Source of the DNA: Pseudonocardiaceae bacterium
GTDB taxonomy: Bacteria > Actinomycetota > Actinomycetes > Mycobacteriales > Pseudonocardiaceae
Direction of reading: 5' to 3'
DNA: 64,000 bases
Assembly (NCBI GenBank): GCA_050699975.1
Contig: JBOHGH010000008.1
Coordinates: forward strand, 976 to 64,975
This document shows, in pieces, positions 16,238-54,388 of the stretch. Under the pieces are notes generated by a model, which worked only from the letters and a program-made list of their open reading frames with translations, was not told where the DNA came from and searched no databases. How positions within the stretch are numbered: position 1 is the stretch's first letter; each line of letters opens with the position of its first letter. The position numbers were made by a program, and so were the translations under genes.

Positions 16238-17166
16238 ATGCTGGCTGTGTCTTATGGCGACCGTCTGACGCATCGAGCGGTGGCCGATGTCCTTGGCCTC
16301 GACGGTGCCTACCGTGACCCGATGTGGCGAGTCACGGTCCAGCTCACCGCGCTTGAGCGTGACCTGCTTCAGTGCTGGTAGGTGCGCCGGCTTGGGTTCA
16401 TCACCCACGCCGGGGCGGCCGCGATCTCGACGACCCAGTCCTACTCGCGGCTGGAACACTCCCTGGGGCTGCTCGCGCTGGCCGCGCATTTCGATCCTGA
16501 TGACCAGGTGGCCCGCGCGGCGGCGTTGCTGCACGATGTGGGGCATCTGCCGTTGAGCCACACGTTCGAACACGTCGCCGGTCTCGATCACCACCAGCTC
16601 GGTGCCGAGCGCATCGCCGACTTGGCCGACCTGCTCCGCCACCACGGCGTGGACTCAGAGGAGGTCATCGCCACCGACACCGGCGCACGCCCCTCGGTAC
16701 TGCGCGGTGGGCTGAGTGGACTGAGGCTCGACCACCTTGAATCACTGGTGCGCAGCGGGTCCGCCACCTCGCCACCGTTCTGTTGGACGGCGCCTGCGCC
16801 TCCCGCAGAAACGAGGTCGCCGCGATGACCGACGACGAGTTCTGGGCGCTGTTGCTCCACCACCCCGACACCGCCGGCTACGCCCGCGCGCTGCGTCGCG
16901 ACCCTGCAGCGTGGCAGGTCGTCCCGCTGACCAAGGACACCGTCGACGGACTCGCCTACGAGGTCCCCCATCTCTACCTCGACATGCCGGTGGTCAACAG
17001 CCGGCCCCTTTTAGCGACGCACCCGGCCCTCGTCGAGTTACCCACCACCCCTTGGGCCTGCCGGATAATCCCACCCGATGCGATCACCGAGGTCGAGAAG
17101 GAACGGCTCGCTACCTGGCGAGCACGGCCCGCAAGGCCTTATCCACTCCGGCGAGGTCGTTGTTGA
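16238..17166 (+). pseudogene. HD-domain phosphohydrolase with an in-frame TAG (16379-16381) and a frameshift near 16765
   Basis: ...ALERDLLQCW*VRRLGFITHAG...LLHDVGHLPLSHTFEH...LRLDHLESLVRSG, then RHLATVLLDGACASRRNEVAAMTDDEFWALL continues in another frame. ORFs 16181..16381 and 16382.. share one frame, separated only by the TAG. Confidence 0.65.
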
Positions 17167-17347
17167 TCTCCCCAACGATCGATCCGACTGGCTCGGTCCG
17201 TTCGGTGACGAGGTGGAGGCCGGCGGTGGTTGCGCGAAGCTTGGCATCGACGCGCCGGAGAACGAGCGCGATCCTGATCAGGTAGGCAGCGAGCACCAGC
17301 ACGGTGAGCGCTGCGAGGATGATCGTGAATACAGCGGCTATCGGCAT
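17111..17347 (-). CDS. Small single-pass membrane protein (array member 5), DUF948-like architecture
   Basis: MPIAAVFTIILAALTVLVLAAYLI, then a helical tail. gaggag lies 8 nt upstream of ATG 17347. ORF open from 17404. Confidence 0.65.
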   Translation of the reverse strand: MPIAAVFTIILAALTVLVLAAYLIRIALVLRRVDAKLRATTAGLHLVTERTEPVGSIVGEINNDLAGVDKALRAVLAR

Positions 17348-17360
17348 GGTAATTCGCTCC

Positions 17361-17609
17361 TCACAGGAGGCGGGCAACCGCCTGCACATAGCGGGTGAGG
17401 CCACCGCCCACCCGTTTCACGGCGTCGCGGGTGGGTATCAGCGCCTTCACATCGTCGCATGCGATGACGATGCCCCCGGCCTGACCGTGAATGGTGTCGA
17501 CGTGCTTCCCGACGTCGAGGGTGGCCCTCATCAGGCGCTGCAGGAGCACCACCACGACGGGTATGACCACGAACAAGAAGATCGCGTTACCGATCCACCA
17601 CAGTGCCAC
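17361..17609 (-). CDS. Small single-pass membrane protein (array member 4)
   Basis: 82 aa with TM IGNAIFLFVVIPVVVVLL. GGAGG lies 6 nt upstream of GTG 17609. Confidence 0.65.
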   Translation of the reverse strand: MALWWIGNAIFLFVVIPVVVVLLQRLMRATLDVGKHVDTIHGQAGGIVIACDDVKALIPTRDAVKRVGGGLTRYVQAVARLL

Positions 17610-17623
17610 CGTCGCCTCCTATC

Positions 17624-17986
17624 TTACTTTCGCCCTATCGCAGGGTCCTGAGTTATTGCGGGTCGCCAACCAGTTCCCGAGGCCTGGGCAGGCGCCGACC
17701 GCGAGGTCTGGGCCTGCGTCTGCTGCGAAGGCAGCGACTCGGCCTTCTCCGCGATGGCGGGCAGCGCGCCGGCGATCACGTTCAGCTTCCGGTTCAGGAG
17801 CGCGGCACCAGCGCCGACCAGAAACACGTCCCCTTGGATCGCCCCGATGACCCCACTACTCACCTGTCCGAGGGTGTTGGCGAGGGAGCGCAGCCGACGA
17901 GTGATCAAGATAACGAACAGCGCCAAGACGGCCACCAGGGCCACGATCTCGACGACGGTGAGGGTTACGAGCAGTCCCGTGCTCAT
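17624..17986 (-). CDS. Small single-pass membrane protein (array member 3)
   Basis: 120 aa with TM LLVTLTVVEIVALVAVLALFVILI, then a helical region and a Q/S/A-rich tail. ATGA overlap with member 2. Confidence 0.65.
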   Translation of the reverse strand: MSTGLLVTLTVVEIVALVAVLALFVILITRRLRSLANTLGQVSSGVIGAIQGDVFLVGAGAALLNRKLNVIAGALPAIAEKAESLPSQQTQAQTSRSAPAQASGTGWRPAITQDPAIGRK

Positions 17987-18258
17987 CGCGCCCCCACCCC
18001 CAGCAGTTGAGCGTGGCGACCCGCCTCGGCCGCGACCTCATCCAGGCTGTCGATGACAGCGAGCGCGATCTTGATGTTGGCCGTGTTGCCGCCAACCCCC
18101 TGCGCCACGTCCCATAGCCGCAGCACGCTGGTTTCGATGGAGCCGACGAGATAGAGGAGGAGGCTGAGCAGCGCGATCACGGCGAGTAGCACGACCGCCC
18201 CGAGAGCCAGGATAACCTGCCAGAACGTGATCTCCTCGGCGGCGAGAGCTAAGACCAT
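17983..18258 (-). CDS. Small single-pass membrane protein (array member 2)
   Basis: 91 aa with TM WQVILALGAVVLLAVIALLSLLLYLV. GGAGG lies 6-7 nt upstream of the ATG. Confidence 0.65.
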   Translation of the reverse strand: MVLALAAEEITFWQVILALGAVVLLAVIALLSLLLYLVGSIETSVLRLWDVAQGVGGNTANIKIALAVIDSLDEVAAEAGRHAQLLGVGAR

Positions 18259-18260
18259 CG

Positions 18261-18536
18261 TTATCCTCCCAAAGCTTGTCGAGCGGCCCGAGCGCCCCGG
18301 AGGATGCTCTGGATCGTGTCGTTCGTGCGGCGCAGCTCCGCGAGCGGCTGGGTGGTCGACTGTGTCGCCTCGAGCTCACGAGTCGCTGCACGCACCTGCG
18401 AGTTGATTCGGGCTGCAAGCACCAAGAGCACGGTTACCACGACCACCACGACGACCACGACCACCAACCCGATGATCAGACCCGCCCACCAGCCACCGAG
18501 GCTCGGCTCCCCAAACTGATTCAACGCTACCCCCAA
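18261..18536 (-). CDS. Small single-pass membrane protein (array member 1), contains a Val run
   Basis: 91 aa with TM WWAGLIIGLVVVVVVVVVVTVLLVLA, then a helical tail. The start is uncertain: TTG 18536, or an in-frame TTG 12 nt downstream. Confidence 0.55.
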   Translation of the reverse strand: MGVALNQFGEPSLGGWWAGLIIGLVVVVVVVVVVTVLLVLAARINSQVRAATRELEATQSTTQPLAELRRTNDTIQSILRGARAARQALGG

Positions 18537-18611
18537 CCCTGCAAGGAATGTTCTGGCGCTTGATCAGGCGCGGAACATCGCCGTTTCACTATTGGGTTCG
18601 TAATCGAAAGT

Positions 18612-19140
18612 TTACACTCCATGACGAGCTGAGGGAAGTGGCAGTATGAGAAGTGCGGCACCGCGCGCCATCCGGAGTCTCAGACATCGACAGGGTTGTG
18701 GCGACCTTGAAAGTTGATCATGGTGTGGTGATGGGGCGGGGGTGTGGGGTGGGTTGGTGTCGAGTTGGTCGGTGAGCCGGGTGAGTGCCCGGGTGATCTT
18801 GGGGTTGGCAGGTCGGTCGAGGCGCACGGTGATGCTGTGGGGTGTAGGTGATGGTGCTACCTCGATGTAGCAGGTTGGCGGTGGTGGCCTGGTACTCGTT
18901 GGGTCTTGTAGGTAGGCGTTGGGTCGCTTGAGCGAGCCAGTGTTCGGCGTTGGCGGCGAGCAGGCGTAGCACCATGTGCAGGACGCGGCGTTGCGCGGCG
19001 CAGGGCGGTCTTGCCGTCTGGATTCTTCTCCAGTGCCGGATATTGGTTTGGGTGCTGGTCAGGGCCCGGTTGGTGGCGTAGTCGGCGAGTGTGTCGATGC
19101 CGTGGACGTCGACGGCGCAAAAAGACTCCCACAAACTCAC
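18612..19140 (-). mobile_element. DDE-type transposase C-terminal remnant (frameshifted)
   Basis: Two overlapping ORFs in different frames: ...LRLLAANAEHWLAQ...LLHRGSTITYTPQH, continuing as ITVRLDRPANPKITRALTRLTDQLD. This resembles the conserved C-terminal end of an actinobacterial transposase family that I cannot name. No N-terminal or catalytic part is present. Confidence 0.45.
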
Positions 19141-19399
19141 GGGCGCGGACGTACGTCACCTCATCGCGGTCTGTCGACAGAAGTGCCCTGTGTTGCACGG
19201 CCCACCACGACAAAAACCGGTGAAGAAGCAAAGCGGCACTGTTTCGCAGTTCGCTGCTGCGGCCGCACGCTTCCCGATGGCAGGTTCAGTACAGTCACGC
19301 GATATTGTGCAATAAGCTCAGTAACGCTGAACGCGAGGAACTCATCACCCGCAAACCTCGCCAAAACTTGCCCAAATCCCTACTCCGCGCTATAACTTC

Positions 19400-19900
19400 G
19401 GCAAGGACACTCCGGGTCAGCGATGTCAAGAGAATGCTCACCGGCGGCGAAGGGAAATCGCTTCTTACCCAGTGTATGCACTCGCGGGGACACTTGGCCT
19501 TCGCCGTGGCGAGCTGCTCGGGCTCAGGTGAAGCGATGCCGATTTCGCGAAGAACTCGCTGCACGTTGTACGGACGGCGCGGCGGGTGTTCTGGTCGATT
19601 GATCATCGATGAGACCGAGACGGATACCTCAGCCGCCGTGATCCCCTTACCGAAGATCACTCGCGCGCTGCTGCGCGAAACCAAGGGTACCAGGCGAAGG
19701 CGCGGGATTACGCCGGCGAGTTATAGGCCGACCACGATGTGGTCTTCACAACAAGCATCGGCACACCCCATCGAACCCCGAATCCTCAATCCCCACCGGG
19801 AAGGCGTCCGGGTACAGGCTGGGCGCCGATTCGAGGCGACGGACGGTGCTGAGGACGCTCCCGTACGGTCGAGGGGCGCCCGAGGGGGCGCTCAGCAGAA
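19400..19900 (+). pseudogene. Tyrosine recombinase (phage-type integrase) remnant, multiply frameshifted and 3'-truncated
   Basis: Fragments in shifting frames: ...TSAAVIPLPKITRALLRE..., YQAKARDYAGE, DHDVVFTTSIGTP(I)EPRILNPH. The last resembles the LVFTTxxGTPIEPRNLxR block that precedes the catalytic Arg-His-Arg-Tyr region, which is missing. Local GC is lower. Confidence 0.5.
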
Positions 19901-19926
19901 CGAGCTGTCGGGTTGATCGTGGCACA

Positions 19927-22900
19927 TCACGGGCAGGGCGGGCGATAGGGCAGGTCTGGGGAGACGTACTGCGCCCACTTCGCGGGGGTGAGGGTATTCG
20001 TGGTGGCGGCGCAGACCCGCTGGATCGCTCGGTCGACGTTCATTCCCCATAACCGAACAGTATGATCGGCGCTGCTACTAGCCAGGGTGTGCCCATCAAG
20101 GTTGAACGCCACTGCAAAGACGAAGTTGGTGTGGCCGGTCAGGGGTTGGCCCAGTGGGGTGGGGTGGGCCGGGCCGGCCATGTTCCACAACCGCACCGTG
20201 TGGTCGCTGCTGCCGCTGGCTAGGGTGCGCCCATCCGGGCTGAAGGCCACCGCGTTGACCGAGTTGGTGTGGCCGGTCAGGGGTTGACCCAACGGAGTGG
20301 GATGAGCCGAGTCGGCCACGTTCCACAACCGCACGGTCCCGTCGACGCTGCCGCTGGCCAGGGTGTGCCCATCCGGGCTGAACGCTACCGCGCGGACGTA
20401 ATTGGTGTGGCCGGTCAGGGGTTGGCCCAGCGGGGTGGGATGGGCCGGTTCGGCCACATTCCACAACCGTACCGTGTGGTCGCTGCTGCCGCTGGCCAGG
20501 GTGTGCCCATCCGGGCTGAACGCCACCGCGTTGACCGAGTTGGTGTGGCCGGTCAGGGGTTGACCCAGCGGAGTGGGATGAGCCGGGTCGGCCACATTCC
20601 ACAACCGCACGGTCCGGTCGTAGCTGGCGGTGGCCAGGGTGCGCCCATCAGGACTGAACGCCACCGCGATGACCGATCGGGTGTGCCCGGTCAGGGGTTG
20701 GCCCAGCGGGGTGGGATGAGCCGGGTCGGCCACATTCCACAACCGCACCGTGTGGTCGCTGCTGCCGCTGGCTAGGGTGCGCCCATCCGGGCTGAACGCC
20801 ACCGCGTTGACCGAGTTGGTGTGGCCGGTCAGGGGTTGACCCAGCGGAGTGGGATGAGCCGGGTCGGCCACATTCCACAACCGCACCGTGTGGTCGCTGC
20901 TGCCGCTGGCTAGGGTGCGCCCATCCGGGCTGAAAACCACCGCGATGACCGATTGGGTGTGGCCGGTCATGAGCGCAGAGGGGATGTCCCACAGCCGCGC
21001 TGTGTGGTCGCCGATGCCGGTGGCCAGGGTGCGCCCATCTGGGCTGAAGGCCACCGCGTAGACGGTGTTGGTGTGCCCGGTCAGGGGTTGACCCAACGGA
21101 GTGGGATGAGCCGGATCGGCCACGTACCACAACCGCACGGTCTGGTCGCGACTGCCGGTGGCCAGGATGTGTCCATCTGGGCTGAAGGCCACCGCGATGA
21201 CGGTGTTGGTGTGCCCGGTCAGGGGTTGACCCAACGGAGTGGGATGAGCCGAGTCAGCCACGTTCCACAACCGCACGGTCCGGTCGCCACTGCCGCTGGC
21301 CAGGGTGCGCCCATCCGGGCTGAAAACCACCGAGTGGATGTTGTTGGTGTGGCCGGTCAGGGAGGGGCCTAGCAGAGTGGGATGGGCCGAGTCAGCCACG
21401 TTCCACAACCGCACGGTCCGGTCGCCACTGCCGCTGGCCAGGGTGCGCCCATCCGGGCTGAACGCCACCGCGCGAACGGTGTTGGTGTGGCCGGTCAGGG
21501 GTTGACCCAGCGGAGTGGGATGGGCCGGGTCGGCCACATTCCACAACCGCACGGTCCGGTCGCTGCTGCCCGTGGCCAGGGTGCGCCCATCCGGGCTGAA
21601 CGCCACCGCGATGACCGATCGGGTGTGGCCGGTCAGGGGTTGACCCAGCGGAGTGGGGTGGGCCGGGTCGGCCACATTCCACAACCGCACGGTCCGGTCG
21701 TAGCTGGCGGTGGCCAGGGTGCGCCCATCCGGGCTGAACGCCACCGCGTTGACCGAGTTGGTGTGGCCGGTCAGGGGTTGACCCAGCGGGGTGGGGTGGG
21801 CCGGGTCGGTCACATTCCACAACCGCACGGTCCGGTCGTAGCTGGCGGTGGCCAGGGTGCGCCCATCAGGACTGAACGCCACCGCTCTGACGACGTCCTC
21901 GTGGCCGTCTACTGGGGTGGATAAGGCGGTGTTCCCTGCGGTGATCAGGGTTGTGAAGAGGTCCGGGGTCGATCGCATGCGGTAGGCGGTGAGGTCGAGT
22001 TGAGCCGCGAGCGAGATATCAGTGCTGCGCAGCCGGTCCGCTTGGGCGGTGATCTGGTTGAAGATTGCGGTGTCGCGTTGTGTCTGCGCGGTGCTGCGTT
22101 GTTGGAAGGCGAATATCGACGCCGTGGTGACGAGCAGCAGCAGGGTCGACAGCACGGCGATGATGCGGGTGCGGCGACGCCGTTCACGCTCCTTGGCGGC
22201 GTGGACGCTCCGGGCGGTGGCGTCGAGGAACGCTCGGGCCTCGTCATCGAGTTCGACGATGGGAGCCGCAGCAGGGTTGCGGCTGCCGCCGTCACCGGCC
22301 ATCCCCAACGTGCCGAGGGCGGCGGTGAGTCGCTTGTCGTCCCAGAGGTAGTGCTCAGGCCGGTCCGCGTTGTTCCACTCAGCGGCCGCTTGCTCGACTC
22401 CCCGGGCGGCGCGCAGGGCGGCGGTGATGTCGGCGGTGGCGGTGTCCAGTGGGCGCCACACGGTGAGCAGGGCCTCGTGGGCCACGGTGAGCCACACCTG
22501 GCCGGCGTCGTCGGTGTCGCTGAGGAGTAGGCGGCGCTCGACGAAGACCTGCAACGCGACACGCAGCGGCTCAGCCAAGCCAATGAGCCTGATCCGTCGC
22601 CGGCCGCGGCGGCCGGTCTCATCGACGGTGACCAGGCGGGTCAGTCCAGCCAGTATGTCGCGGTCGGTCAGGCCGCTGGTCCGGACCGCCTCGGTGAGTG
22701 CCGCATCGGCATGCCGGGCCAATCCACCTTGGACGCGGCCGAGGTCGCGGTAGCGCGACAGGCTCAACGTGCCTCCGGCGGGCAGGCCCTCTGCCAGCTG
22801 GCGCAAGGTGAACGCGAGCAGCGACAGGGCTTCGCCGCTGTCGGTGTCGGCCACCAGCGAAGCGGCCAGTCCGTCGTCGAGGCGCAGCCGGGCCACCTTG

Positions 22901-23967
22901 GCGGGCTGTTCGATGACGTCGCGCAGCATCTCCCGGTCCAGCGGAGCCAACACGTACGCCTCGATCGGCATGCTGGCCAGCGCGGGAAGCGTGCGGAGGT
23001 CATCAAGGAACTCTGACCGCATCACCGCAACCACCTGCACCGGGCCAGCGACCGCGTCGCGCAGCAGCTGCGTGAATCGCTGCAAGGCGGCCGGGGTCGT
23101 CCGGGTGAACAACTCCTCGACCTGGTCGATCGTCACCAGCAGTCGCCGCTGCTGAGTGCCCTGGCGGGCGGCCAGTAGATCGTCGGCCACCCGCCGCAGG
23201 CCATCGGTGCCGGCTTCGAGCCGGCGGCGGACGTCGCTGGCCGACCAGCCCAACTCCAGACCGGTGGCGGTGGCCGCCAGCGTCCGGGCCAACTCAGGTA
23301 GCGGATCGGTTCCCGGCACCAGCGTCGGCACCGTCAGCCATGCCGGATCAGTGTCAAGCAGCGGCACCACCGCAGCGTTCAACAGCGAGGATTTCCCGCA
23401 GCCGGACGGCCCGACGATGGCCAGCATGCCGCCGGTGCCGTCCATGGTGCGCAGCCGATTGCCCACCTCCCGGGCCTCCGCCGCGCGACCGAAAAACACC
23501 CGGCTCAGCGCCGCGGTGAACGGCTCCAACCCCGGGAACGGATTGTCGCCCTCCCGCCAGGCGCCGCCACCGTCATCCAGAAGCAGCACTGACTGGAGCA
23601 CTCGGTTGCGGGCTTGCTGGGAGTCCGCGTGATAGTCCACATACTGCAGGCCCTGCATCAACGGATGCACCACACCGGCCTCAGCTCGCAGCGGTATGAG
23701 CCGGCACCCCCGCGCATCCGCAATTCCCAACTCAGCAAAGCACCATTCCGACGCCACAAAGGACGTCGTCACCACCCCGATCACCGCGTCGACCTGGCGC
23801 AGCTCGCGGTACAGACGCTGCTTCCAGTCCTCGCCGGGGCCGATTCCGTCGCGAAGATCGTGGTCGAGGAACGGCTCGTGGCCAGCTGCCCGCAGCCAAC
23901 CCGACACCTCGTCGGCAATCGCCCGGTCCGGGGTGGCATAACTGATGAAGATGTGAGCCACGATCAC
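19927..23967 (-). CDS. TIR domain - STAND P-loop NTPase - single TM helix - 14x WD40 repeat protein
   Basis: 1346 aa. TIR: IFISYATPD...SEWCFAELG (the WCxxE glutamate is E79). Walker A is GPSGCGKSS; Walker B-like is LLVTIDQVEELF. TM is RRRRTRIIAVLSTLLLLVTTASIFAF (aa 601-621). Then 14 WD40 units (FSPDG...D.TVRLW). Confidence 0.9.
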   Translation of the reverse strand: MIVAHIFISYATPDRAIADEVSGWLRAAGHEPFLDHDLRDGIGPGEDWKQRLYRELRQVDAVIGVVTTSFVASEWCFAELGIADARGCRLIPLRAEAGVVHPLMQGLQYVDYHADSQQARNRVLQSVLLLDDGGGAWREGDNPFPGLEPFTAALSRVFFGRAAEAREVGNRLRTMDGTGGMLAIVGPSGCGKSSLLNAAVVPLLDTDPAWLTVPTLVPGTDPLPELARTLAATATGLELGWSASDVRRRLEAGTDGLRRVADDLLAARQGTQQRRLLVTIDQVEELFTRTTPAALQRFTQLLRDAVAGPVQVVAVMRSEFLDDLRTLPALASMPIEAYVLAPLDREMLRDVIEQPAKVARLRLDDGLAASLVADTDSGEALSLLAFTLRQLAEGLPAGGTLSLSRYRDLGRVQGGLARHADAALTEAVRTSGLTDRDILAGLTRLVTVDETGRRGRRRIRLIGLAEPLRVALQVFVERRLLLSDTDDAGQVWLTVAHEALLTVWRPLDTATADITAALRAARGVEQAAAEWNNADRPEHYLWDDKRLTAALGTLGMAGDGGSRNPAAAPIVELDDEARAFLDATARSVHAAKERERRRRTRIIAVLSTLLLLVTTASIFAFQQRSTAQTQRDTAIFNQITAQADRLRSTDISLAAQLDLTAYRMRSTPDLFTTLITAGNTALSTPVDGHEDVVRAVAFSPDGRTLATASYDRTVRLWNVTDPAHPTPLGQPLTGHTNSVNAVAFSPDGRTLATASYDRTVRLWNVADPAHPTPLGQPLTGHTRSVIAVAFSPDGRTLATGSSDRTVRLWNVADPAHPTPLGQPLTGHTNTVRAVAFSPDGRTLASGSGDRTVRLWNVADSAHPTLLGPSLTGHTNNIHSVVFSPDGRTLASGSGDRTVRLWNVADSAHPTPLGQPLTGHTNTVIAVAFSPDGHILATGSRDQTVRLWYVADPAHPTPLGQPLTGHTNTVYAVAFSPDGRTLATGIGDHTARLWDIPSALMTGHTQSVIAVVFSPDGRTLASGSSDHTVRLWNVADPAHPTPLGQPLTGHTNSVNAVAFSPDGRTLASGSSDHTVRLWNVADPAHPTPLGQPLTGHTRSVIAVAFSPDGRTLATASYDRTVRLWNVADPAHPTPLGQPLTGHTNSVNAVAFSPDGHTLASGSSDHTVRLWNVAEPAHPTPLGQPLTGHTNYVRAVAFSPDGHTLASGSVDGTVRLWNVADSAHPTPLGQPLTGHTNSVNAVAFSPDGRTLASGSSDHTVRLWNMAGPAHPTPLGQPLTGHTNFVFAVAFNLDGHTLASSSADHTVRLWGMNVDRAIQRVCAATTNTLTPAKWAQYVSPDLPYRPPCP
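20037..21906 (-). repeat. Tandem 138-bp (46-codon) near-identical WD40 coding repeats: 13 full units plus one short unit (unit 7, 38 codons)
   Basis: The unit V.AVAFSPDGRTLA..S.D.TVRLWNVADPAHPTPLGQPLTGHT.. recurs with long identical nucleotide runs. The same periodic peptides appear in several shadow ORFs on both strands. Confidence 0.9.
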
Positions 23968-25984: not shown

Positions 25985-26539
25985 CTAAGACTTTTCTGCG
26001 GGTTGACCGGCGGGGGCCAGCACCCAGGCGGGGTTGAAGGCGGCGATGACGTCGCCTCCGGTACCGGATTGGACGGCAGCAGGCTGCCCGGTGTGGCCGG
26101 CCTGGATGTCAACGAACGTCACCCCCGCTGCGGTGAGCACGTCTAGATTGCGTTGCCAGACGGGGTGCGACCACAGGCGATTGTTGACCATCGGTGCGAT
26201 GGTGATCGGGGTTTGTGAAGCGAGGGCTTCGCACAGCAGGCCCGCGGCGTAGTTGTCCATGATCCCGACGACGAGCTTGTTCACCGTGTTGAACGTGGCG
26301 GGACACACGATGACCTGAGCCGGTGGAGGAAACCGCTTAGCTTGTCCGGGCTGGCGCTGGTCGACGAGCACAGTAAACCCGGTGACCTTCTCGACTCGGT
26401 CAGCGTCTACCCAGTTCATTGCCGAAGGTGTTGCAACCACGCGCACGATCCAACCCACTTCGACCGCCTGTGCTGCGACATCGTGTGCGCGGGCAGCGAG
26501 CGGCGCGCCGCAGGCGACGAGTACGAGATGCTCGGGCAC
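25985..26539 (-). CDS. Flavoprotein, HFCD family (PPC-decarboxylase / EpiD-like fold)
   Basis: LVLVACGAPLAARAHDV...VRVVATPSAMNWV...VCPATFNTVNKLVVGIMDNYAAGLLCEAL (the PATxNT motif of Pfam Flavoprotein). GTG 26539 lies 7 nt after the upstream stop. Confidence 0.7.
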   Translation of the reverse strand: MPEHLVLVACGAPLAARAHDVAAQAVEVGWIVRVVATPSAMNWVDADRVEKVTGFTVLVDQRQPGQAKRFPPPAQVIVCPATFNTVNKLVVGIMDNYAAGLLCEALASQTPITIAPMVNNRLWSHPVWQRNLDVLTAAGVTFVDIQAGHTGQPAAVQSGTGGDVIAAFNPAWVLAPAGQPAEKS

Positions 26540-26546
26540 CGACGGC

Positions 26547-27752
26547 CTAGTCCAGCACGCCCGCGCGTACCGAGAGGTCGTGCAAAACGCTGTTCGGGCG
26601 GCGTGCGCGGGCGAGCATCTCGCGCAACAGGTCACCGACCATCGCGTTGTACCGCATCGCCTCCGGGGCGCAGCGTTCCGCTTCGAGCAGGTGCAGCGTT
26701 GCCTCGGCGTCGCGCTTGCGCTGTGCCTGCGCCCAGGCGAGATCGAGATAGACCTGTGCCCGTCGGCTGCGCAGACCATCCGCCAACCTCATCGGATCGA
26801 CGTCCGCGGCTGCCCGGAGCGCTTCGCCTGGATCGCCCAACTCGGCCGCCACCGTCACCCGGTGGATCCGGACGTTCGTCGGGCCGAACGCGGTCCATGC
26901 GTGGTTGGCGTCCTCGGCGAGCAGCTCAGCAAGACACTCGGCCGCGTCCAGGCGTGCCCAGGCCTCGCCCCGATCGGTGCGACGCGCGGCGGCCACCGCC
27001 GCGATCAACCACAACGCACCGGCAACCGAAGCCAGCTTCGGGGTCTCGGTCGTGGCCGATCCGTGGATCTTCTCGGCCATACGCACCGCGAGCCGCTCCG
27101 CCTCGTCAGTGTGGTCTGCCCGCAACTGAGCGCACACCACCTGGTACGCAGCCATCCCCCGGGCGCCGAGCGAGTCGGCCTCAACCGCGATCGTCGCTGC
27201 CCGGTCCGCCGCGAGCACGGCAAGATCGGTCACGCCGAACTTGGTCAGCAGCTTCGCGGCACCAACGTAGGCAAATACGTAGGTGCACAGCATCACGCCC
27301 CGCTCGTCGGCGGCGATCCGTGGTACCCCGTCGATCAGTGTGATGAGATCCGGGAGCTGACGGACGACCGTCTCATACCGTGCGGCCTGGTAATCCTGGT
27401 GCAGCGTCGCGACCTGGCCGCGCAATTCGGGCAATGGCGACATGATAGGAGCGTCCGCGCCGAGCAGGTGGTCATACCGGGTCATGACCTGCCGGACCGC
27501 GTCCAGGCCCTGGGCAACCCCGCCACCATTCGGGGGCAGCTGCCAAGGCCGGCCGATCAGCGACTCCACATCGACGTGCAGGATGCGCGCCATGTCAAGC
27601 AGCACGGACAGGCGATCCATCGAGCGGATCCCGCGCTCGACCTGAGACAGCCACGACTCCGACCTGCCGACCAGACCGGCCAGTGCCGCCTGACTCAGCC
27701 CACGTCGACGCCGATACACCGCGACACGCTCGCCAATTCCCGCCCAAGGCAC
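26547..27752 (-). CDS. XRE-family HTH regulator with a long helical (TPR-like) C-terminal domain
   Basis: 401 aa. HTH: RRRRGLSQAALAGLVGRSESWLSQVERGIRSMDRLSVLLDMARIL. Confidence 0.8.
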   Translation of the reverse strand: MPWAGIGERVAVYRRRRGLSQAALAGLVGRSESWLSQVERGIRSMDRLSVLLDMARILHVDVESLIGRPWQLPPNGGGVAQGLDAVRQVMTRYDHLLGADAPIMSPLPELRGQVATLHQDYQAARYETVVRQLPDLITLIDGVPRIAADERGVMLCTYVFAYVGAAKLLTKFGVTDLAVLAADRAATIAVEADSLGARGMAAYQVVCAQLRADHTDEAERLAVRMAEKIHGSATTETPKLASVAGALWLIAAVAAARRTDRGEAWARLDAAECLAELLAEDANHAWTAFGPTNVRIHRVTVAAELGDPGEALRAAADVDPMRLADGLRSRRAQVYLDLAWAQAQRKRDAEATLHLLEAERCAPEAMRYNAMVGDLLREMLARARRPNSVLHDLSVRAGVLD

Positions 27753-27878
27753 GCGGCAAGTGTCACATTTCCCTGTGGCGGCCCACCACGACGTCTGTCA
27801 GAGTGTCCGCTCTCCTCGGGACTAGTCCACGCGAAGAGAGTGATCATGCCGATCACCATCGTGCCTGGTCAGGGGCGG

Positions 27879-27963
27879 CGGAAGCGGAGGGATTCGAACC
27901 CCCGGGTGGTTGCCCACCTCTCGCTTTCAAGGCGAGTGCATTAGACCGCTCTGCCACGCTTCC
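27879..27963 (-). tRNA. tRNA-Ser (anticodon UGA)
   Basis: Sense strand: GGAAGCGTGGCAGAGCGGTCTAATGCACTCGCCTTGAAAGCGAGAGGTGGGCAACCACCCGGGGGTTCGAATCCCTCCGCTTCCG. It has a 7-bp acceptor stem, anticodon stem CTCGC/GCGAG with loop CTTGAAA, a long variable arm and a TTCGAAT T-loop. CCA is not encoded. Confidence 0.9.
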
Positions 27964-39038: not shown

Positions 39039-42000
39039 GTGCTGACCCCCGGGCACACCGAGACCTCGCGCCGCCCGTCCGGCATTGGTGACGAGGCCAC
39101 CGAGCGTCCCCCCGGCCGCCACAGAGGTAACGACCGTGTCTGCCCGCGGTGGCGGATCGCAGCCGCAGCGCTCGGTCTGCTCGGCGCGCTACTCGCCGTC
39201 CTGATACCGCTACTGCCGGTGGTCCAGGCCACCACCGTGATCACCTGGCCGCGCCCGGGGCAGGTTGCCCCGGTCAACGCGCCGCTGGTCACCTTTCAGC
39301 CGCAGAGCCTGACCGCCACGATCCCCTGCACGGCAGCCACCTCGGCTGACGCGCGGACGGTGCAGCCGGCGTCGCTGCTGGCCACCACCCCGCCCGGCTC
39401 CACCGAAGGCGCGGCCGTGGGAATGGTCCTGCAGGTGGCGGACCGGAAGCTGAGCCTGATCAGCCGCGGCCAGGCGCTCGGGACACCCATCCCCGTGCCC
39501 CCGGGCGAATGCTTGATCAAGATCGACTCCGACGCCACCGGCACCACGGCCTCGGCCGGCCCCACCCAGTTCGTCACCGTCGACCAGGACGTCCGGCCGC
39601 AGGTGACCGGCATCTACTCGGTTCTCGACGAGAAGCTCGACCCGGTCGCGGGGCTGGCGGTGCAGATCACCGCGGACACCCGCTTCCAGTCCACCCCACA
39701 TCCGATCAAGCTCGCCGCGATGGTGCTCGCCGTGGTGGCCGTGTTGAGCAGCCTGATCCTGCTGCATCGGCTGGACGGGCGGATCAGTCGACGGGCCCCC
39801 CGGCTGCTGCCGTCGGGCTGGTGGCGCCCCACCGGGCGGGACGCGACGGTGATCACCGTGCTGGCGGTGTGGGTCGTCATCGGTGGGATCACCTCCGACG
39901 ACGGCTACATCCTCACGATGATCCGCACCAGTTTGGACATGGGGTACGTCGGCAATTACTACCGATGGTTCAACGTCCCCGAGGCGCCCTTCGGCTGGCC
40001 CTACGAGCTGTACACGTTGTGGGCGCAGATCAGCACCGCTCCGCCGTGGCTGCGGCTGCCCTCCTTCGCCATGGGTGTGGTCAGCTGGATGCTGATCAGC
40101 CGCGAGGTGATGCCGCGGCTGGGCCGGCAAGTCCGCCGCAGTGCCGCCGCCGGATGGGCCGCCGCCGCGGTGTTCCTGGCCTTCTGGCTGCCCTACAACA
40201 ACGGCCTGCGGCTGGAACCGGTGGTCGCGATCGGCTCGCTGCTCGCGTTGTGCGCGGTAGAGCGCGCGGTGGCCACCCGCCGGGTGTTGCCGCTGGCGCT
40301 AGGCCTGCTCGCTGCCGCCTTCACCGTCGCCGCGACACCGACCGGTTTCATCGCGGCCGCACCGTTCCTGGTGGCGGTGCGACCACTGGTGCGACTGCTG
40401 CGCCAGCACGCCTCCGTCGCCGGTCGGCCCGCCGTGCTCGGGCCGATCATCGGTGCCGGGTTGCTGGTTCTTGTGGTGATCTTTGCTGACCAGACGCTGA
40501 GAGGGGTGCTGGAAGCCACCCGGATACGCACCGAGATCGGTCCCAGCATGTCCTGGTTCCAGGAGCCCACCCGCTACCAGTGGCTGTTCAGCCCCACCCC
40601 GGACGGGGCGCTGGCCCGCCGCTTCCCGGTGGTGCTGTTGCTGCTGTGCCTGGGAACCTGCCTGGTGGTGCTGTTGCGCCGGGGCGGCATCCCGGGCGCC
40701 GGCCTGGGTCCGAGCCGGCGGCTGATCGCCACCGCGGGGGTGTCGCTGGTACTCATGGCGCTGACTCCGACCAAATGGACCCACCACTTCGGGGCGCTCG
40801 CCTCGATCGGCGCCGCGCTGGCCGCGCTCACCGCGCTGGCCACCAGCTCGGGCGTGCTGCGTTCGGCGCGCAACCGGTGGTGGTTCGTGTCCGGCCTGCT
40901 GGTGATCCTGGCGCTGTCCTCGACCGGACCCAACGCACCGTGGTACGTCTCGCAGTACGGGGTGCCGTGGTTCGACAAACCCCCGTCGGTGAACGGCTTC
41001 CAAGCGAGCACGCTGCTGATCGTGGCGGCCGCGCTGGCCGGGTTGATCGCGGTGATCGAGGGGTTGCGGCACGAGCCGGGCGCACCGCCGCCACCCCCGC
41101 CGGACCGGGGCAACGGGCAGCGGCGGGCGCTGCTGATCGGGTCGGCTCCGCTGGCGGTGTTCTGCGGCCTGCTGGTGCTCGCCGAGGTCGGCGCGATGTT
41201 CAAGGCAATGCACAAGCAGCGCGACGGCTACAGCATGGCCGCCGCCAACATCGCCCATATCACCGGACGCAGTTGCAATCTCACCGACGCCGTGTCCGTC
41301 GAGCCCGATCGGAGCGCCGGTGCGCTGATCCCGCTCCGGGGTGCGCTGCTCGCCGACATCCCGCTGCGGCGTGGCTTCGAACTCAACCGGCTCACCTCCC
41401 CCGTAATCACTGACGGGGCGGACGAGCAACCTGGCGATACTCAGAGTGACCGCATTCAGGGTGACCGCGCTCCCGAGTCCGAGCCGAACATCCCGGTTGG
41501 CATCCCACCGCCTGGGCTGGGTGGCGACAAGATCCCGATCTGGAGCAGCTTCTCCAGCGACGGCCCCGGCACCGGGGACACCCGCACCACCTGGTACGCG
41601 CTGCCCGGCGGGGCCGGCCAGGGCCGTAACGCGCCGGTCGTGATCTCCGTCGCCGGAAACCTGTCCTCCACCACACCGCTGGTCGCTGAGTTCGCCCGCC
41701 GCACCGAGCGTGGATTTCAGGTCGTCGACCAGATTCCCATCGGCGGGCAGGCCACCGCCAATGCGCCAGGATGGCGGGACTACCGCCTCGGGCTGGCCGG
41801 CCGGCCCGCCGCCGGGGCGGACACCGTGCGGCTGATCGCCACCGACGCCGACGTCACCGAAGAGGGTTGGCTGTCGTTCTCCGCGCCCCGGGTGCCCGTG
41901 CTGACCTCGATGACCGACCTGGTGGCCCCGATACCCCCGGTGTTCATGGACTGGCCCGTCGGCTTCGTTCACCCGTGCGTGCGCCCGTTCGAGGTCCGCA

Positions 42001-42317
42001 ACGGCATCGCCGAAGTGCCCCAGTATCGGCTCCTACCCGACGAGCTGCTGGCTGATTACAGCAAGAACTGGTCATCACGGGACGCCGGCGGTCCGATCGG
42101 CTGGTTGCAGATTCTCGCTACCGAGCAGGAGGTGCCGACCTACCTCAAGGAGAACTGGGACACCGACTGGGGCAAGCTCATGGTCATCCAGCCCCGGGTA
42201 CCCGACGCTGAGGCACCCACGTTGAGGACCGGCACCGAGGTGCGCAGCGGCTGGTGGTCACCGGGGCCGCTGCGCAGCGGAGGCCAGACCGCGGAGATCT
42301 CCCAACTGGGTCGCTGA
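39039..42317 (+). CDS. Arabinosyltransferase, EmbA/B/C family (GT-C)
   Basis: 1092 aa. N-terminal domain, about 13 TM segments (ITSDDGYILTM..., WYVSQYGVPWFDKPP) and a C-terminal carbohydrate-binding domain. Confidence 0.85.
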   Translation: MLTPGHTETSRRPSGIGDEATERPPGRHRGNDRVCPRWRIAAAALGLLGALLAVLIPLLPVVQATTVITWPRPGQVAPVNAPLVTFQPQSLTATIPCTAATSADARTVQPASLLATTPPGSTEGAAVGMVLQVADRKLSLISRGQALGTPIPVPPGECLIKIDSDATGTTASAGPTQFVTVDQDVRPQVTGIYSVLDEKLDPVAGLAVQITADTRFQSTPHPIKLAAMVLAVVAVLSSLILLHRLDGRISRRAPRLLPSGWWRPTGRDATVITVLAVWVVIGGITSDDGYILTMIRTSLDMGYVGNYYRWFNVPEAPFGWPYELYTLWAQISTAPPWLRLPSFAMGVVSWMLISREVMPRLGRQVRRSAAAGWAAAAVFLAFWLPYNNGLRLEPVVAIGSLLALCAVERAVATRRVLPLALGLLAAAFTVAATPTGFIAAAPFLVAVRPLVRLLRQHASVAGRPAVLGPIIGAGLLVLVVIFADQTLRGVLEATRIRTEIGPSMSWFQEPTRYQWLFSPTPDGALARRFPVVLLLLCLGTCLVVLLRRGGIPGAGLGPSRRLIATAGVSLVLMALTPTKWTHHFGALASIGAALAALTALATSSGVLRSARNRWWFVSGLLVILALSSTGPNAPWYVSQYGVPWFDKPPSVNGFQASTLLIVAAALAGLIAVIEGLRHEPGAPPPPPPDRGNGQRRALLIGSAPLAVFCGLLVLAEVGAMFKAMHKQRDGYSMAAANIAHITGRSCNLTDAVSVEPDRSAGALIPLRGALLADIPLRRGFELNRLTSPVITDGADEQPGDTQSDRIQGDRAPESEPNIPVGIPPPGLGGDKIPIWSSFSSDGPGTGDTRTTWYALPGGAGQGRNAPVVISVAGNLSSTTPLVAEFARRTERGFQVVDQIPIGGQATANAPGWRDYRLGLAGRPAAGADTVRLIATDADVTEEGWLSFSAPRVPVLTSMTDLVAPIPPVFMDWPVGFVHPCVRPFEVRNGIAEVPQYRLLPDELLADYSKNWSSRDAGGPIGWLQILATEQEVPTYLKENWDTDWGKLMVIQPRVPDAEAPTLRTGTEVRSGWWSPGPLRSGGQTAEISQLGR

Positions 42318-42513
42318 GATCGCTGAGCAAAGAGGGGCCCCCCGCGGAAACGAGGGGGAGGTGTTCCGCGAGGGGCGGCGGATCCGGCTGGGGGTCCCGA
42401 ACCCGCACTTCATTGTGCCACTTTCAGACTCCCCCATGCGAGTGATCCCACGGCGTGGCGCACAGGATTTCCTCGGCGCGTCGCCGCTACCACTCGTCCG
42501 GGTCAGTGGCGGA

Positions 42514-42921
42514 TCAGTGCCGGAAGATCACCGTGCGTTGCACAATGAAGTTGATACATGTGGCAGTGCCCTGTGCGACGACGAACGCGGCAGTGATCTC
42601 ACCCTGCATCGGCGGCAGCAACGCGAGCATCACCGCGTTCATCCCCACCTGAACGACGAAGGTGATCCCGTACAGCGCCATCACCGAAGCGAGCTGCGCG
42701 CCGCCACCCCGGCCCTGGAACGTCCACCGGCGGTTGATCAGGTAGGCGGTGGCGGTACCGGCGATGAATCCCAGCGCCTTGGCCAGATGCACCCACAGCC
42801 CGGTGGCCAGCAACGCCTGGTAGCTGCCGTAGTCAACGATGGCGGCGACGCCGCCGACGAGCACGAACCGGGTGAGCTGGGTGGCCAGGCTCCGACGCGC
42901 CGCTAGCTGGGGTGCGGCCAA
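42514..42921 (-). CDS. GtrA family membrane protein
   Basis: 135 aa with 4 TM segments: QLTRFVLVGGVAAIVDYGSYQAL...INFIVQRTVIF. Confidence 0.8.
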   Translation of the reverse strand: MAAPQLAARRSLATQLTRFVLVGGVAAIVDYGSYQALLATGLWVHLAKALGFIAGTATAYLINRRWTFQGRGGGAQLASVMALYGITFVVQVGMNAVMLALLPPMQGEITAAFVVAQGTATCINFIVQRTVIFRH

Positions 42922-43049
42922 TCCGGGCTCCTTACCAGTGGCGGTCAGGTTCGAGAAGAGTACCGACGGGCCACCGGCACCGCCGGACCACCCGTTACCC
43001 TCCCGCCGTGGTCGCTTCCCGTTCGGAACGGACCACGGGATGGCGGGCT

Positions 43050-52114: not shown

Positions 52115-54388
<2,274 letters not shown>

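What the first reader, a model, noticed from the sequence alone, without database searches (positions are those of the whole stretch)
19927..23967. 1346-aa TIR - STAND NTPase - TM - double WD40 propeller protein in an island-like context: candidate NLR-like immune or abortive-infection sensor
The N-terminal TIR domain retains the SxWCxxEL context, whose glutamate (E79) is the NADase catalytic residue in characterised TIR enzymes. It is followed by a P-loop NTPase (GPSGCGKSS; LLVTIDQVEELF) with the helical STAND-type extension, one hydrophobic helix, and 14 WD40 blades. TIR plus STAND plus repeat sensor is the logic of bacterial Avs/NLR-like antiphage systems and of plant and animal NLRs. The gene sits next to transposase and integrase remnants and about 4 kb from a tRNA-Ser, typical of defence islands. 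All neighbouring genes up to the XRE regulator at 27.7 kb are on the same strand.
Basis: partly seen in the sequence, partly recalled or inferred. Interest (0 to 1): 0.75.

Follow-up and report, generated by a model that had tools for sequence, protein, structure and literature searches.

The report
Membrane-spanning TIR–STAND–WD40 receptor gene
This intact 1346-residue actinomycete gene joins an NAD-cleaving TIR domain and an ATPase switch to a membrane helix and 14 near-identical WD40 repeats; it belongs to a large, already described but untested family of predicted bacterial immune receptors, and its sensor probably lies outside the cell.

Summary
ORF 19927..23967 (-) encodes TIR_2 (E79 in the catalytic column), a full-length nSTAND1 NTPase with intact Walker A and B motifs, one hydrophobic helix (residues 602-621), 14 WD40 blades (7+7) and a two-cysteine tail. 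It is a new member of a known kind. nSTAND1 with TIR heads was defined by Kaur et al. 2021. A search of 1.84 billion representatives gave 1,448 relatives at E<=1e-30, and most of the best 150 are ~1350-aa proteins of the same build. No member has been tested. It matches no Avs, bNACHT or Thoeris model. (1) The helix is conserved family-wide with a strongly positive N-side flank, so TIR and NTPase should be cytoplasmic and the WD40 sensor outside. (2) The blades are ~87% identical in DNA, with variation focused on five columns, as in fungal HET-E-type receptors. (3) The same NTPase-helix-WD40 body also carries HTH or caspase heads. The island context is partly right: integrase and probable transposase remnants abut the 3' end, and tRNA-Ser lies 3.9 kb upstream. 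However, the gene keeps this position in related genomes, has up to 8 paralogues per genome, and known defence genes are not enriched nearby.

The parts
19927..23967 (-). Whole gene: TIR - nSTAND1 - TM - 14xWD40 - Cys-pair tail, 1346 aa, GTG start, intact
23605..23952 (-). TIR_2 domain (residues 6-121). The WxxxE motif W75-E79 lies at 23731-23745.
   Evidence: Pfam E 7e-24. E79 aligns with the catalytic-Glu column of solved TIRs. W75, C76 and E79 are invariant in 33 paralogues. Foldseek finds TIR structures: RPP1, SPARTA, TLR1.
22354..23541 (-). nSTAND1 NTPase module (residues 143-538). Walker A lies at 23386-23412 and Walker B at 23107-23142.
   Evidence: Pfam PF20703 full length, E 2e-76. 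G186, S188, G191, K192, S193, S194, D281, Q282, E284 and E285 are invariant in 52 homologues. The AF2 model shows a P-loop alpha/beta core, then helical and winged-helix-like parts.
22105..22164 (-). Predicted single transmembrane helix (residues 602-621), preceded by KERERRRRTR (22165-22194). It lies inside one long predicted helix, residues 575-646 (22030-22245).
   Evidence: Kyte-Doolittle mean is about 2.5. Flank charge is +4.6 on the N side and +1.2 on the C side in 100 close homologues. All 94 full-length 50%-cluster representatives have a helix at this position, and in 90 it is the only one. AF2 predicts a 72-residue helix.
20974..21915 (-). WD40 units 1-7 (first predicted 7-bladed propeller, residues 685-998)
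20020..20973 (-). WD40 units 8-14 (second predicted 7-bladed propeller, residues 999-1316)
   Evidence: The 138-bp tandem array has 86-89% matches between copies.
19930..20019 (-). C-terminal tail with two conserved cysteines (C1319, C1345), the only Cys residues after the helix
   Evidence: Exactly 2 Cys occur in the last 45 aa in 90 of 91 sequences counted (the window protein plus 90 full-length representatives). The tail is 78-80% identical to that of HTH-headed relatives.
19445..19900 (+). Tyrosine recombinase (integrase) pseudogene fragment. It is convergent with the gene, ends about 30 bp from its stop codon, and is broken by stops and frameshifts.
   Evidence: (E 1e-19, PF00589 proteins)
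18700..19150 (-). Probable C-terminal remnant of a DDE transposase (frameshifted)
   Evidence: The homologues are unnamed. The transposase assignment is inferred from the RWRIENxFK (YREK-type) motif in longer homologues.
27877..27963 (-). tRNA-Ser(tga), upstream of the gene and conserved at the same relative position in the orthologous loci L003/L001 and L058
26547..27752 (-). XRE-type HTH_31 regulator (401 aa), of a type recurrent near paralogues. Any link to the gene is unproven.

Best explanation
The gene encodes a single-polypeptide, NLR-like receptor of the nSTAND1 clade that is anchored in the membrane by one helix. The TIR domain and the P-loop STAND switch face the cytoplasm. Two seven-bladed WD40 propellers and a Cys-pair tail face the outside. 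The propellers are built from near-identical blades whose few variable positions correspond to the ligand-binding top face. In the proposed mechanism, binding of a non-self ligand brings receptors together and lets the NTPase modules oligomerise with ATP. Candidate ligands are a phage particle or tail protein, or a competitor's secreted or surface protein. Oligomerisation juxtaposes the TIR domains into an active NADase, which depletes NAD+ or makes an ADPR-derived signal and arrests or kills the hyphal compartment. Shown here: the domain architecture, the intact catalytic and NTP-binding motifs, the conserved helix with its charge bias, the hypervariable repeat columns, the paralogue expansion and the head swapping. 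Inferred: the topology, the type of ligand, the NADase activity and the physiological outcome.
For: Architecture and motifs. Structure: the AF2 model of residues 1-700 (mean pLDDT 73) is closest to the plant TIR-NLR RPP1 (7dfv, 7crc; E 1.4e-5), SPARTA TIR and the Apaf-1 apoptosome. Topology: the helix is conserved in 100 close homologues and in all 94 distant full-length ones, with flank charge about +5 on the N side and +1 on the C side. It lies in a single 72-residue predicted helix. The part after the helix has exactly two Cys in the tail in 90 of 91 sequences and an even Cys count in 86%, as expected for a disulphide in an exported actinobacterial domain. The same NOD-helix-WD40 body carries N-terminal HTH_31 heads, which must be cytoplasmic to bind DNA. 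Sensor diversification: the 14 units are 87% identical in DNA and 84% in protein. Variation is concentrated in columns 7, 8, 10, 26 and 28, and these columns recur among the most variable in 12 relatives (11 paralogues and homologue P0003). Dyrka et al. 2020 describe this pattern for fungal and bacterial NLR repeats. Conflict-system hallmarks: up to 8 paralogues per genome plus pseudogenised copies; interchangeable TIR, HTH, caspase and kinase heads; and variable flanks with integrase and transposase remnants. Kaur et al. 2021 define nSTAND1 as a counter-invader STAND clade with TIR among its effectors.
Against: No member of this family has been tested, and the NADase activity, topology and ligand are all predictions. 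Known defence genes are not enriched near 35 paralogous loci. The gene is positionally conserved next to tRNA-Ser across diverged genomes, which also fits a housekeeping or signalling role. HTH-headed siblings that share the sensor show that the chassis is not intrinsically a suicide device. Classical STAND autoinhibition relies on direct contact between sensor and NOD, and a membrane between them would forbid that, so a different activation route has to be assumed. No relatives were found in viral contigs, and no partner that could read a TIR product lies nearby. The ~425-aa HTH gene that precedes many paralogues is missing here, so this copy may be regulated differently or not at all.
Confidence: 0.5

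Rival explanations
1. It is a classical cytoplasmic, Avs-like abortive-infection sensor. The WD40 propellers sit in the cytoplasm and bind a phage protein made during infection. The hydrophobic helix only tethers the protein to the inner face of the membrane or is buried in the fold.
For: The tripartite effector-NOD-repeat logic is the same as in Avs, bNACHT and Apaf-1, and the Foldseek hits go to RPP1 and Apaf-1. The 2026 STAND survey treats WD40 propellers as STAND sensor domains within a framework of intracellular recognition of phage proteins. In known STANDs, direct contact between sensor and NOD explains autoinhibition.
Against: A 20-residue helix with Kyte-Doolittle mean ~2.5, flanked by about +5 and +1 charges and conserved in every full-length relative, is a typical signal-anchor. 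There is no second hydrophobic segment to bring the chain back. The conserved Cys pair occurs only after the helix. No Avs or bNACHT model matches.
Confidence: 0.15
2. It is a non-immune transmembrane signalling receptor for environmental, cell-wall or developmental cues in a filamentous actinomycete. The TIR acts as a scaffold or as a regulated NAD-derived signal generator rather than a suicide effector.
For: The chromosomal position is conserved across genomes. Paralogues sit next to housekeeping genes such as guaB, a GMC oxidoreductase and Emb. The commonest neighbours are XRE-type regulators. HTH-headed siblings share the same sensor, with WD 64-69% and tail 78-80% identical. Known defence genes are not enriched nearby.
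Against: Hypervariable top-face columns in near-identical repeats, many paralogues per genome, pseudogenised copies and interchangeable caspase and TIR heads are signatures of conflict systems. The catalytic Glu and the WxxxE motif are invariant.
Confidence: 0.2
3. It is a kin or allorecognition receptor analogous to fungal HET-E/NWD proteins. The variable propellers would recognise polymorphic surface or secreted proteins of conspecific strains and trigger local cell death on contact.
For: The repeat architecture and variable-column pattern match those described for fungal WD40 NLRs. An outward-facing sensor would suit recognition on contact.
Against: No polymorphic partner locus was identified. 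Vegetative fusion or contact incompatibility is not established for Pseudonocardiaceae (my own knowledge). The data cannot separate this from pathogen sensing.
Confidence: 0.1

Closest known systems
nSTAND1-clade conflict-system STAND NTPases (Kaur, Iyer, Burroughs & Aravind, eLife 2021, PMC8195603; Pfam PF20703)
   Same: The NTPase matches the family model end to end. The paper lists the TIR head among the effectors fused to STAND NTPases including nSTAND1. The gene is found in a filamentous actinomycete lineage. JGI already names a relative 'conflict system STAND superfamily ATPase/TIR/WD40'.
   Different: Nothing defining differs, so this is a member. The passages I read do not discuss the helix between NOD and WD40, the outward-facing sensor it implies, or the sensor shared with HTH-headed proteins.
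Plant TIR-NLRs (RPP1, ROQ1) and the Apaf-1 apoptosome
   Same: The order is TIR, STAND NOD, then repeat sensor. They are the best structural matches to the predicted N-terminal 700 residues. The catalytic Glu is conserved. Apaf-1 also uses two WD40 propellers.
   Different: The NOD clade differs (nSTAND1, not NB-ARC). The sensor is WD40 rather than LRR. A predicted membrane helix separates NOD and sensor, whereas the plant and animal proteins are soluble and cytosolic.
Bacterial antiphage STANDs: Avs1-5/Avs7 and bNACHT
   Same: They are single-gene effector-NTPase-sensor proteins that act by ligand-induced oligomerisation.
   Different: No PADLOC Avs or bNACHT model matches. The sensors are TPR-like and cytoplasmic. 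These systems sit in defence islands of unicellular bacteria, whereas here defence neighbours are not enriched.
Fungal HET-E/HET-D/NWD WD40 NLRs with highly internally conserved repeats
   Same: Repeat units are 80-90% identical and variation is restricted to a few positions, a pattern linked to repeat shuffling and rapid change of specificity.
   Different: The fungal proteins use a NACHT NOD with HET or other heads and have no membrane helix.
Toll-like receptors, and ToxR- or PknB-type single-pass bacterial receptors (topology only)
   Same: The predicted layout is an outside repeat sensor, one membrane helix and an inside TIR. HTH-headed siblings resemble ToxR/CadC-type membrane-bound transcription factors.
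   Different: TLRs have LRR ectodomains and no NTPase, and their TIR is a scaffold. The resemblance is analogy, not homology, beyond the TIR fold. The topology here is predicted, not shown.
Thoeris ThsB TIR proteins
   Same: There is weak TIR-level similarity (PADLOC ThsB E 8e-6; NCBIfam ThcB4 39 bits).
   Different: The scores are far below the family cut-off (220 bits). There is no ThsA-like reader gene in the window. The TIR is fused to its own sensor.

Membership tests
nSTAND1 STAND NTPase clade (PF20703) | Full-length match to the family HMM above the gathering score | tested here: met
   258 bits against a cut-off of 27.1, covering profile positions 1-378 of 379 at residues 143-538
nSTAND1 STAND NTPase clade (PF20703) | Intact Walker A (GxxxxGKS/T) and Walker B (hhhhD..EE) motifs | tested here: met
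   GPSGCGKSS at 186-194 and LLVTIDQVEE at 276-285, invariant in 52 homologues
nSTAND1 STAND NTPase clade (PF20703) | N-terminal effector and C-terminal repeat sensor, with interchangeable heads | tested here: met
   TIR head and WD40 sensor here. Relatives carry HTH_31, caspase or kinase heads.
Catalytic (NADase-type) TIR domains | TIR fold | tested here: met
   TIR_2 at E 7e-24. Foldseek matches TIR structures with TM-scores (normalised to the target) of 0.55-0.76.
Catalytic (NADase-type) TIR domains | Conserved catalytic glutamate in the alpha-C helix (WxxxE context) | tested here: met
   E79 aligns with the Glu column of 3h16, 7xoz and 7uxr and is invariant in 33 paralogues
Catalytic (NADase-type) TIR domains | NAD+ hydrolase or cyclase activity on oligomerisation | not testable with these tools
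   Needs a biochemical assay
Avs / bNACHT antiphage STAND families | Match to the family's NTPase or sensor models (PADLOC) | tested here: not met
   Only HEAT-ARM_XIII (on the WD40 part), weak TIR/ThsB-like hits and weak mad3/mad8 P-loop hits. No Avs or bNACHT model at E<=0.01.
Thoeris (ThsB + ThsA) | ThsB-family TIR above cut-off and an adjacent ThsA-type reader | tested here: not met
   ThcB4 scores 39 bits against a cut-off of 220. No such neighbour among the ORFs scanned at 16-29 kb.
Highly internally conserved (HIC) WD40 NLR sensors (HET-E type) | Repeat units ~80-90% identical, with variation focused on a few columns | tested here: met
   Mean identity between units is 84% in protein and 87% in DNA. 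Entropy peaks at columns 7, 8, 10, 26 and 28, and these columns recur among the most variable in 12 relatives.
Highly internally conserved (HIC) WD40 NLR sensors (HET-E type) | Positive selection or repeat shuffling shown at population level | not tested
   Needs population data and long-read assemblies. Short-read MAG contigs break or collapse inside the array.
Single-pass transmembrane receptor (N-in, C-out) | One conserved hydrophobic helix with positive-inside charge bias | tested here: met
Single-pass transmembrane receptor (N-in, C-out) | Experimentally shown extracytoplasmic location of the C-terminal domain | not testable with these tools
   The only indirect support is the conserved Cys pair and the HTH-headed siblings
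Defence-island / mobile-island gene | Enrichment of known defence genes or mobile-element genes in the neighbourhood; bounded element | tested here: inconclusive
   Integrase and probable transposase remnants, a tRNA and a low-GC patch are present. There is no att repeat. The locus is conserved in relatives. PADLOC hits among 135 neighbours are sporadic.

The most novel reading that the evidence does not exclude
The family would be a bacterial receptor class that combines a Toll-like-receptor layout with an NLR-type NTPase switch: a variable repeat ectodomain outside, one membrane helix, and the NTPase and TIR inside. In this reading, filamentous actinomycetes survey their cell surface for non-self with many paralogous, rapidly diversifying WD40 ectodomains. 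Phage particles, competitor proteins and kin determinants are candidate ligands. The same sensor cassette is exchanged between NADase (TIR), transcription-factor (HTH) and caspase outputs. In Pseudonocardiaceae the HTH- and TIR-headed proteins are 64-80% identical in the sensor but only 31% in the NTPase. Activation across a membrane would require a STAND mechanism different from the sensor-NOD autoinhibition known so far.
Probability: 0.4. Interest if true: 0.7.

Novelty: new member of a known kind. Interest (0 to 1): 0.4.

Why it matters
The gene is not a new kind of system. TIR-STAND-WD40 proteins of multicellular bacteria have been predicted as conflict systems for two decades, and the nSTAND1 clade is named and in Pfam. 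The family is nevertheless very large (1,448 50%-identity cluster representatives at E<=1e-30) and, as far as the papers searched here show, has never been tested. All characterised bacterial STAND immune sensors detect their ligands inside the cell. If the predicted topology holds, this family would show that an NLR-type switch can be driven from outside the cell. It would also give a tractable bacterial model for two questions: how repeat-shuffled WD40 sensors generate specificity, and how TIR NADases are activated at a membrane. The HTH-headed siblings with the same sensor offer a built-in reporter for finding ligands.

Tried and rejected
(1) Membership in Avs, bNACHT or Thoeris: rejected, because PADLOC and NCBIfam gave no or only sub-threshold hits.

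(2) A discrete tRNA-integrated island: searches for the tRNA-Ser 3' end (21-27 nt, up to 3 mismatches) found no second copy in the relevant stretch.

(3) Mobile-element remnants: ORF-level and six-frame Pfam scans, blastn against plasmids, PDB phmmer and tblastn against phages all returned nothing. tblastn with transposase genes from related loci also found nothing. Only the large protein database confirmed the integrase fragment, so the earlier negatives were sensitivity failures. The six-frame Pfam scan covered only 18540-19926. The 24.0-26.0 kb stretch was covered only at ORF level.

(4) A conserved two-gene module: a ~425-aa HTH_31 gene lies directly upstream, on the same strand, in at least 7 paralogous loci, including the positional orthologue L058. 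It is absent from the window, so it cannot be counted as part of this locus.

(5) The five small membrane ORFs downstream as partners: rejected, because none of the fetched loci carry them and the closest orthologue diverges 105 bp after the stop codon.

(6) Phage origin: no relatives in IMG/VR.

(7) Promoter, terminator and inverted-repeat scans around the gene gave nothing above chance.

(8) The AF2 model has a low overall pTM (0.39) and low confidence at 132-162, 184-193 and 339-360. I therefore used it only for fold assignment and the long helix, not for active-site geometry.

Full report
**1. The observation**

The minus-strand ORF 19927..23967 is real and intact: 1346 codons with a GTG start. 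Its GC3 of 0.83 matches other coding regions of this 68% GC window. All paralogues found elsewhere begin with the same V-I-V-A-[HR]-[IV]-F-I-S-Y, which supports the start.

Pfam gives three domains:
- TIR_2 at residues 6-121 (E 7e-24).
- nSTAND1 (PF20703) at residues 143-538, covering the whole profile (E 2e-76).
- WD40 in 14 stretches.

W75-C-F-A-E79 lies in the TIR, Walker A GPSGCGKSS at 186-194, and Walker B LLVTIDQVEELF at 276-287. E79 falls in the column of the conserved Glu of PdTIR (3h16), a plant TIR deposited as ADP-ribosyl cyclase (7xoz) and a bacterial TIR (7uxr), both by single-sequence and by profile search. W75, C76 and E79 are invariant in 33 intact paralogues. The Walker residues are invariant in 52 homologues.

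**2. The repeat array**

Tandem Repeats Finder reports a 138-bp period with 86-89% matches between copies across 20.07-21.89 kb. At the protein level there are 14 units of 46 residues. One junction, after unit 7, is shortened to 38 residues, which suggests two seven-bladed propellers.

Eleven canonical units are on average 87% identical in DNA and 84% in protein. Variation is concentrated in columns 7, 8 and 10 (just after the GHT) and columns 26 and 28 (either side of the Asp of SxDxT). Most other columns are invariant apart from synonymous changes. From my own knowledge of WD40 structure, these columns lie on the top, ligand-binding face. I did not test this on a model.

These columns recur among the most variable in 12 relatives: 11 paralogous proteins and homologue P0003. 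Dyrka et al. (bioRxiv 2020.01.06.895854) describe this 'high internal conservation' of repeats for fungal and bacterial NLR-like proteins and link it to repeat shuffling and rapid change of specificity. This feature is therefore known.

**3. The hydrophobic helix**

Residues 602-621 (IIAVLSTLLLLVTTASIFAF) follow KERERRRRTR. In 100 close homologues, the most hydrophobic 19-residue window lies at the equivalent position in nearly all. Its median Kyte-Doolittle score is 2.57, and the net charge of the 15 flanking residues is +4.6 on the N side and +1.2 on the C side.

I then searched residues 143-640 against 1.84 billion cluster representatives. The result was 26,869 proteins at E<=1e-3 and 1,448 at E<=1e-30. 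The best 150 are mostly ~1350-aa proteins in which the NTPase starts near residue 142. Among the 94 full-length ones:
- All have a helix at this position with the same charge asymmetry, and in 90 it is the only one.
- 89 have a WxxxE motif within the first 130 residues, most of them as WCxxE near residue 73.
- Nearly all end with a tail containing two cysteines.

Exactly two Cys occur in the last 45 residues in 90 of 91 sequences counted (the window protein plus 90 full-length representatives). They are the only Cys after the helix in 64 of 91. AlphaFold2 places the segment inside one uninterrupted 72-residue helix, 575-646.

By the positive-inside rule, this predicts an N-in, C-out topology with the TIR and NTPase in the cytoplasm and the propellers outside. 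This is an inference. No tool here can show topology.

**4. Family and literature**

The 120 best of 977 hits in the 5.8-billion-protein database are 65-96% identical. Nearly all of those that carry a name are from Pseudonocardiaceae, Pseudonocardiales or Actinomycetota MAGs and are named 'TIR domain-containing protein' or 'WD40 repeat protein'. One is named 'conflict system STAND superfamily ATPase/TIR/WD40'. A cultured relative is Saccharothrix tamanrassetensis WP_184698753.1.

Kaur et al. 2021 (PMC8195603) named nSTAND1 as a STAND clade of counter-invader systems in multicellular bacteria, with TIR among the N-terminal effectors. It also appears as a named domain in DGR-diversified sensors (PMC10907252) and as a previously defined clade in the 2026 STAND phylogeny, which notes WD40 sensors (PMC13581612). 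None of the passages I read discusses a membrane helix between the NTPase and the WD40 array. Two further literature searches found nothing on this point either. That is absence of evidence within this library only.

PADLOC gives no Avs or bNACHT hit. It returns a WD40 match, weak TIR/ThsB-like matches and weak mad3/mad8 P-loop matches. NCBIfam gives only a sub-threshold Thoeris ThcB4 hit. Foldseek with the model of residues 1-700 finds plant RPP1 first, then SPARTA TIR-APAZ, TLR TIR domains and the Apaf-1 apoptosome.

**5. Modularity**

More distant nSTAND1 relatives fetched from genomes carry other heads on the same body:
- HTH_31 in three Pseudonocardiaceae loci and one Microbacterium locus.
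- Caspase in a cyanobacterium.
- TIR in an Egibacteraceae MAG.
- A Ser/Thr kinase in a Polyangia MAG; that protein has no helix.

The Pseudonocardiaceae HTH-headed proteins are only ~31% identical to the window protein in the NTPase. They are 50-57% identical in the helix-linker region, 64-69% in the WD40 part and 78-80% in the tail. The Microbacterium protein is ~30-35% identical throughout. This suggests that within this lineage the sensor cassette is shared or exchanged between NADase and transcription-factor outputs. An N-terminal DNA-binding head also fits the N-in topology.

**6. Genomic context**

The window is chromosomal. It carries ilvE-like, AzlC, MFS, two Emb arabinosyltransferase, RPE65 and terpene synthase genes.

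*Paralogues.* The family is expanded in these genomes. One MAG (SON bin10) has eight loci, and several others have three or four TIR-headed copies plus HTH-headed copies. Four loci carry stops or frameshifts in the TIR region, though low-coverage assemblies may contribute to that.

*Orthologous loci.* The window locus is orthologous to L003/L001 (93% protein identity, flanks ~96% DNA identity) and to L058 (77% protein identity, flanks ~75% DNA identity). In all of them tRNA-Ser(tga) lies upstream in the same orientation. The DNA between the tRNA side and the gene differs completely: 1.45 kb here, against 6.9 kb with an rve transposase, a radical SAM gene and another XRE in L003. The downstream flank diverges from L001 105 bp after the stop codon.

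*Mobile-element remnants.* Immediately downstream, on the opposite strand (about 19445-19900), is a frameshifted fragment of a tyrosine recombinase (E 1e-19). At 18.7-19.15 kb there is a fragment of a protein family whose longer members carry an RWRIENxFK motif typical of DDE transposases. The transposase assignment is inferred from that motif. This stretch coincides with a GC dip to 0.625-0.65.

*Limits of the island reading.* No tRNA-derived repeat bounds an element. Among 135 neighbour proteins from 35 loci, the most frequent family is HTH_31, in 12 proteins. PADLOC hits are single and scattered: one SNF2 helicase, one RT, one Cas1-like protein and two methyltransferases. A ~425-aa HTH_31 protein lies directly upstream on the same strand in at least seven loci, including L058, but is absent here. 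The context is therefore a recombination-prone, variable spot next to a tRNA. It is not a recognisable defence island or an intact mobile element.

**7. Interpretation**

The best-supported reading is an all-in-one NLR-like receptor whose output is a TIR NADase. It belongs to the nSTAND1 clade and has a rapidly diversifying double-propeller sensor that is probably extracytoplasmic. The mechanism I favour runs as follows: ligand-driven clustering, then ATP-dependent NOD oligomerisation, then TIR juxtaposition, then NAD+ cleavage, then local growth arrest. This follows from established knowledge of TIR enzymes and STAND switches. Every step after the architecture is inferred.

The rivals cannot be excluded:
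- A cytoplasmic Avs-like sensor.
- A non-immune signalling receptor.
- A kin-recognition receptor.

The HTH-headed siblings and the lack of defence-gene enrichment keep the non-immune reading alive.

**8. Verdict**

The gene is a new member of a known, computationally defined and experimentally untested family, so the finding itself is of moderate interest. The family-wide membrane helix, and the TLR-like layout it implies, is the aspect most worth testing at the bench.

Noticed in passing
window 17111-18536 (-): Five tandem small ORFs (82-120 aa) lie in the low-GC patch downstream of the integrase and transposase remnants. Each has one N-terminal hydrophobic helix followed by a helical, polar tail. 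They give only sub-threshold Pfam hits (DUF948, DUF4381) and are absent from all fetched related loci.
   Followed up: partly
L067:2397-6275, L070:9737-13615, L071:1681-4806: HTH_31- or short-headed nSTAND1-TM-WD40 proteins occur in the same lineage. They share the sensor with the window protein (WD 64-69% and tail 78-80% identical) but only ~31% identity in the NTPase. This suggests exchange of the sensor cassette between output types.
   Followed up: partly
L008:8550-9830, L058:8559-9833, L017:238-1503, L054:5711-6994 and others: A ~425-aa protein with an N-terminal HTH_31 and an unassigned C-terminal domain lies directly upstream, on the same strand, of TIR-nSTAND1 paralogues in at least 7 loci. 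It may be a dedicated regulator. It is missing from the window locus.
   Followed up: partly
L011:2639-3058, L056:2862-3281, L057:10001-10420, L061:1605-2024: Some paralogues have a stop (at the W75 codon in L011) or frameshifts inside the TIR domain. These are either pseudogenised copies or errors in low-coverage MAG assemblies.
   Followed up: no
L003 contig end; L001:10001-12262: Short-read MAG contigs end inside the 138-bp WD40 array or collapse it. L001 encodes 753 aa instead of ~1350. Many database 'partial' proteins of this family are therefore assembly artefacts, and blade numbers in MAGs are unreliable.
   Followed up: partly
window 25985-27752 (-): The 401-aa XRE ORF (26547-27752) and a flavoprotein-domain ORF (25985-26779) overlap by ~230 nt. 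The close relative L003/L001 lacks ~300 bp here and is called as one 380-aa flavoprotein gene, so one of the two arrangements is probably a recent deletion or fusion.
   Followed up: partly
window 16382-17166 (+): An HD-domain ORF (148 aa, truncated profile match) overlaps a second ORF in another frame. This looks like a frameshifted HD phosphohydrolase pseudogene. The 12-19 kb region generally looks decayed.
   Followed up: no
window 52139-54388 (+): A 749-aa protein has two Terpene_syn_C_2 stretches, a two-domain sesquiterpene synthase of the geosmin-synthase type (the type is judged from memory). The surrounding 50-59 kb has lower GC (0.62-0.65).
   Followed up: no
window 39039-46322 (+), 46328-47839 (+), 48995-50575 (+): Two tandem Emb-type arabinosyltransferases, an RPE65-family carotenoid oxygenase and an AAA_16-LuxR regulator show that the window is ordinary actinomycete chromosome.
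   Followed up: no
window 18718-19140 (-): P0290, a 123-aa 'hypothetical protein' from a Pseudonocardiaceae MAG (3.6-kb contig), is 100% identical to this degenerate ORF. This points to the source lineage of the window.
   Followed up: no
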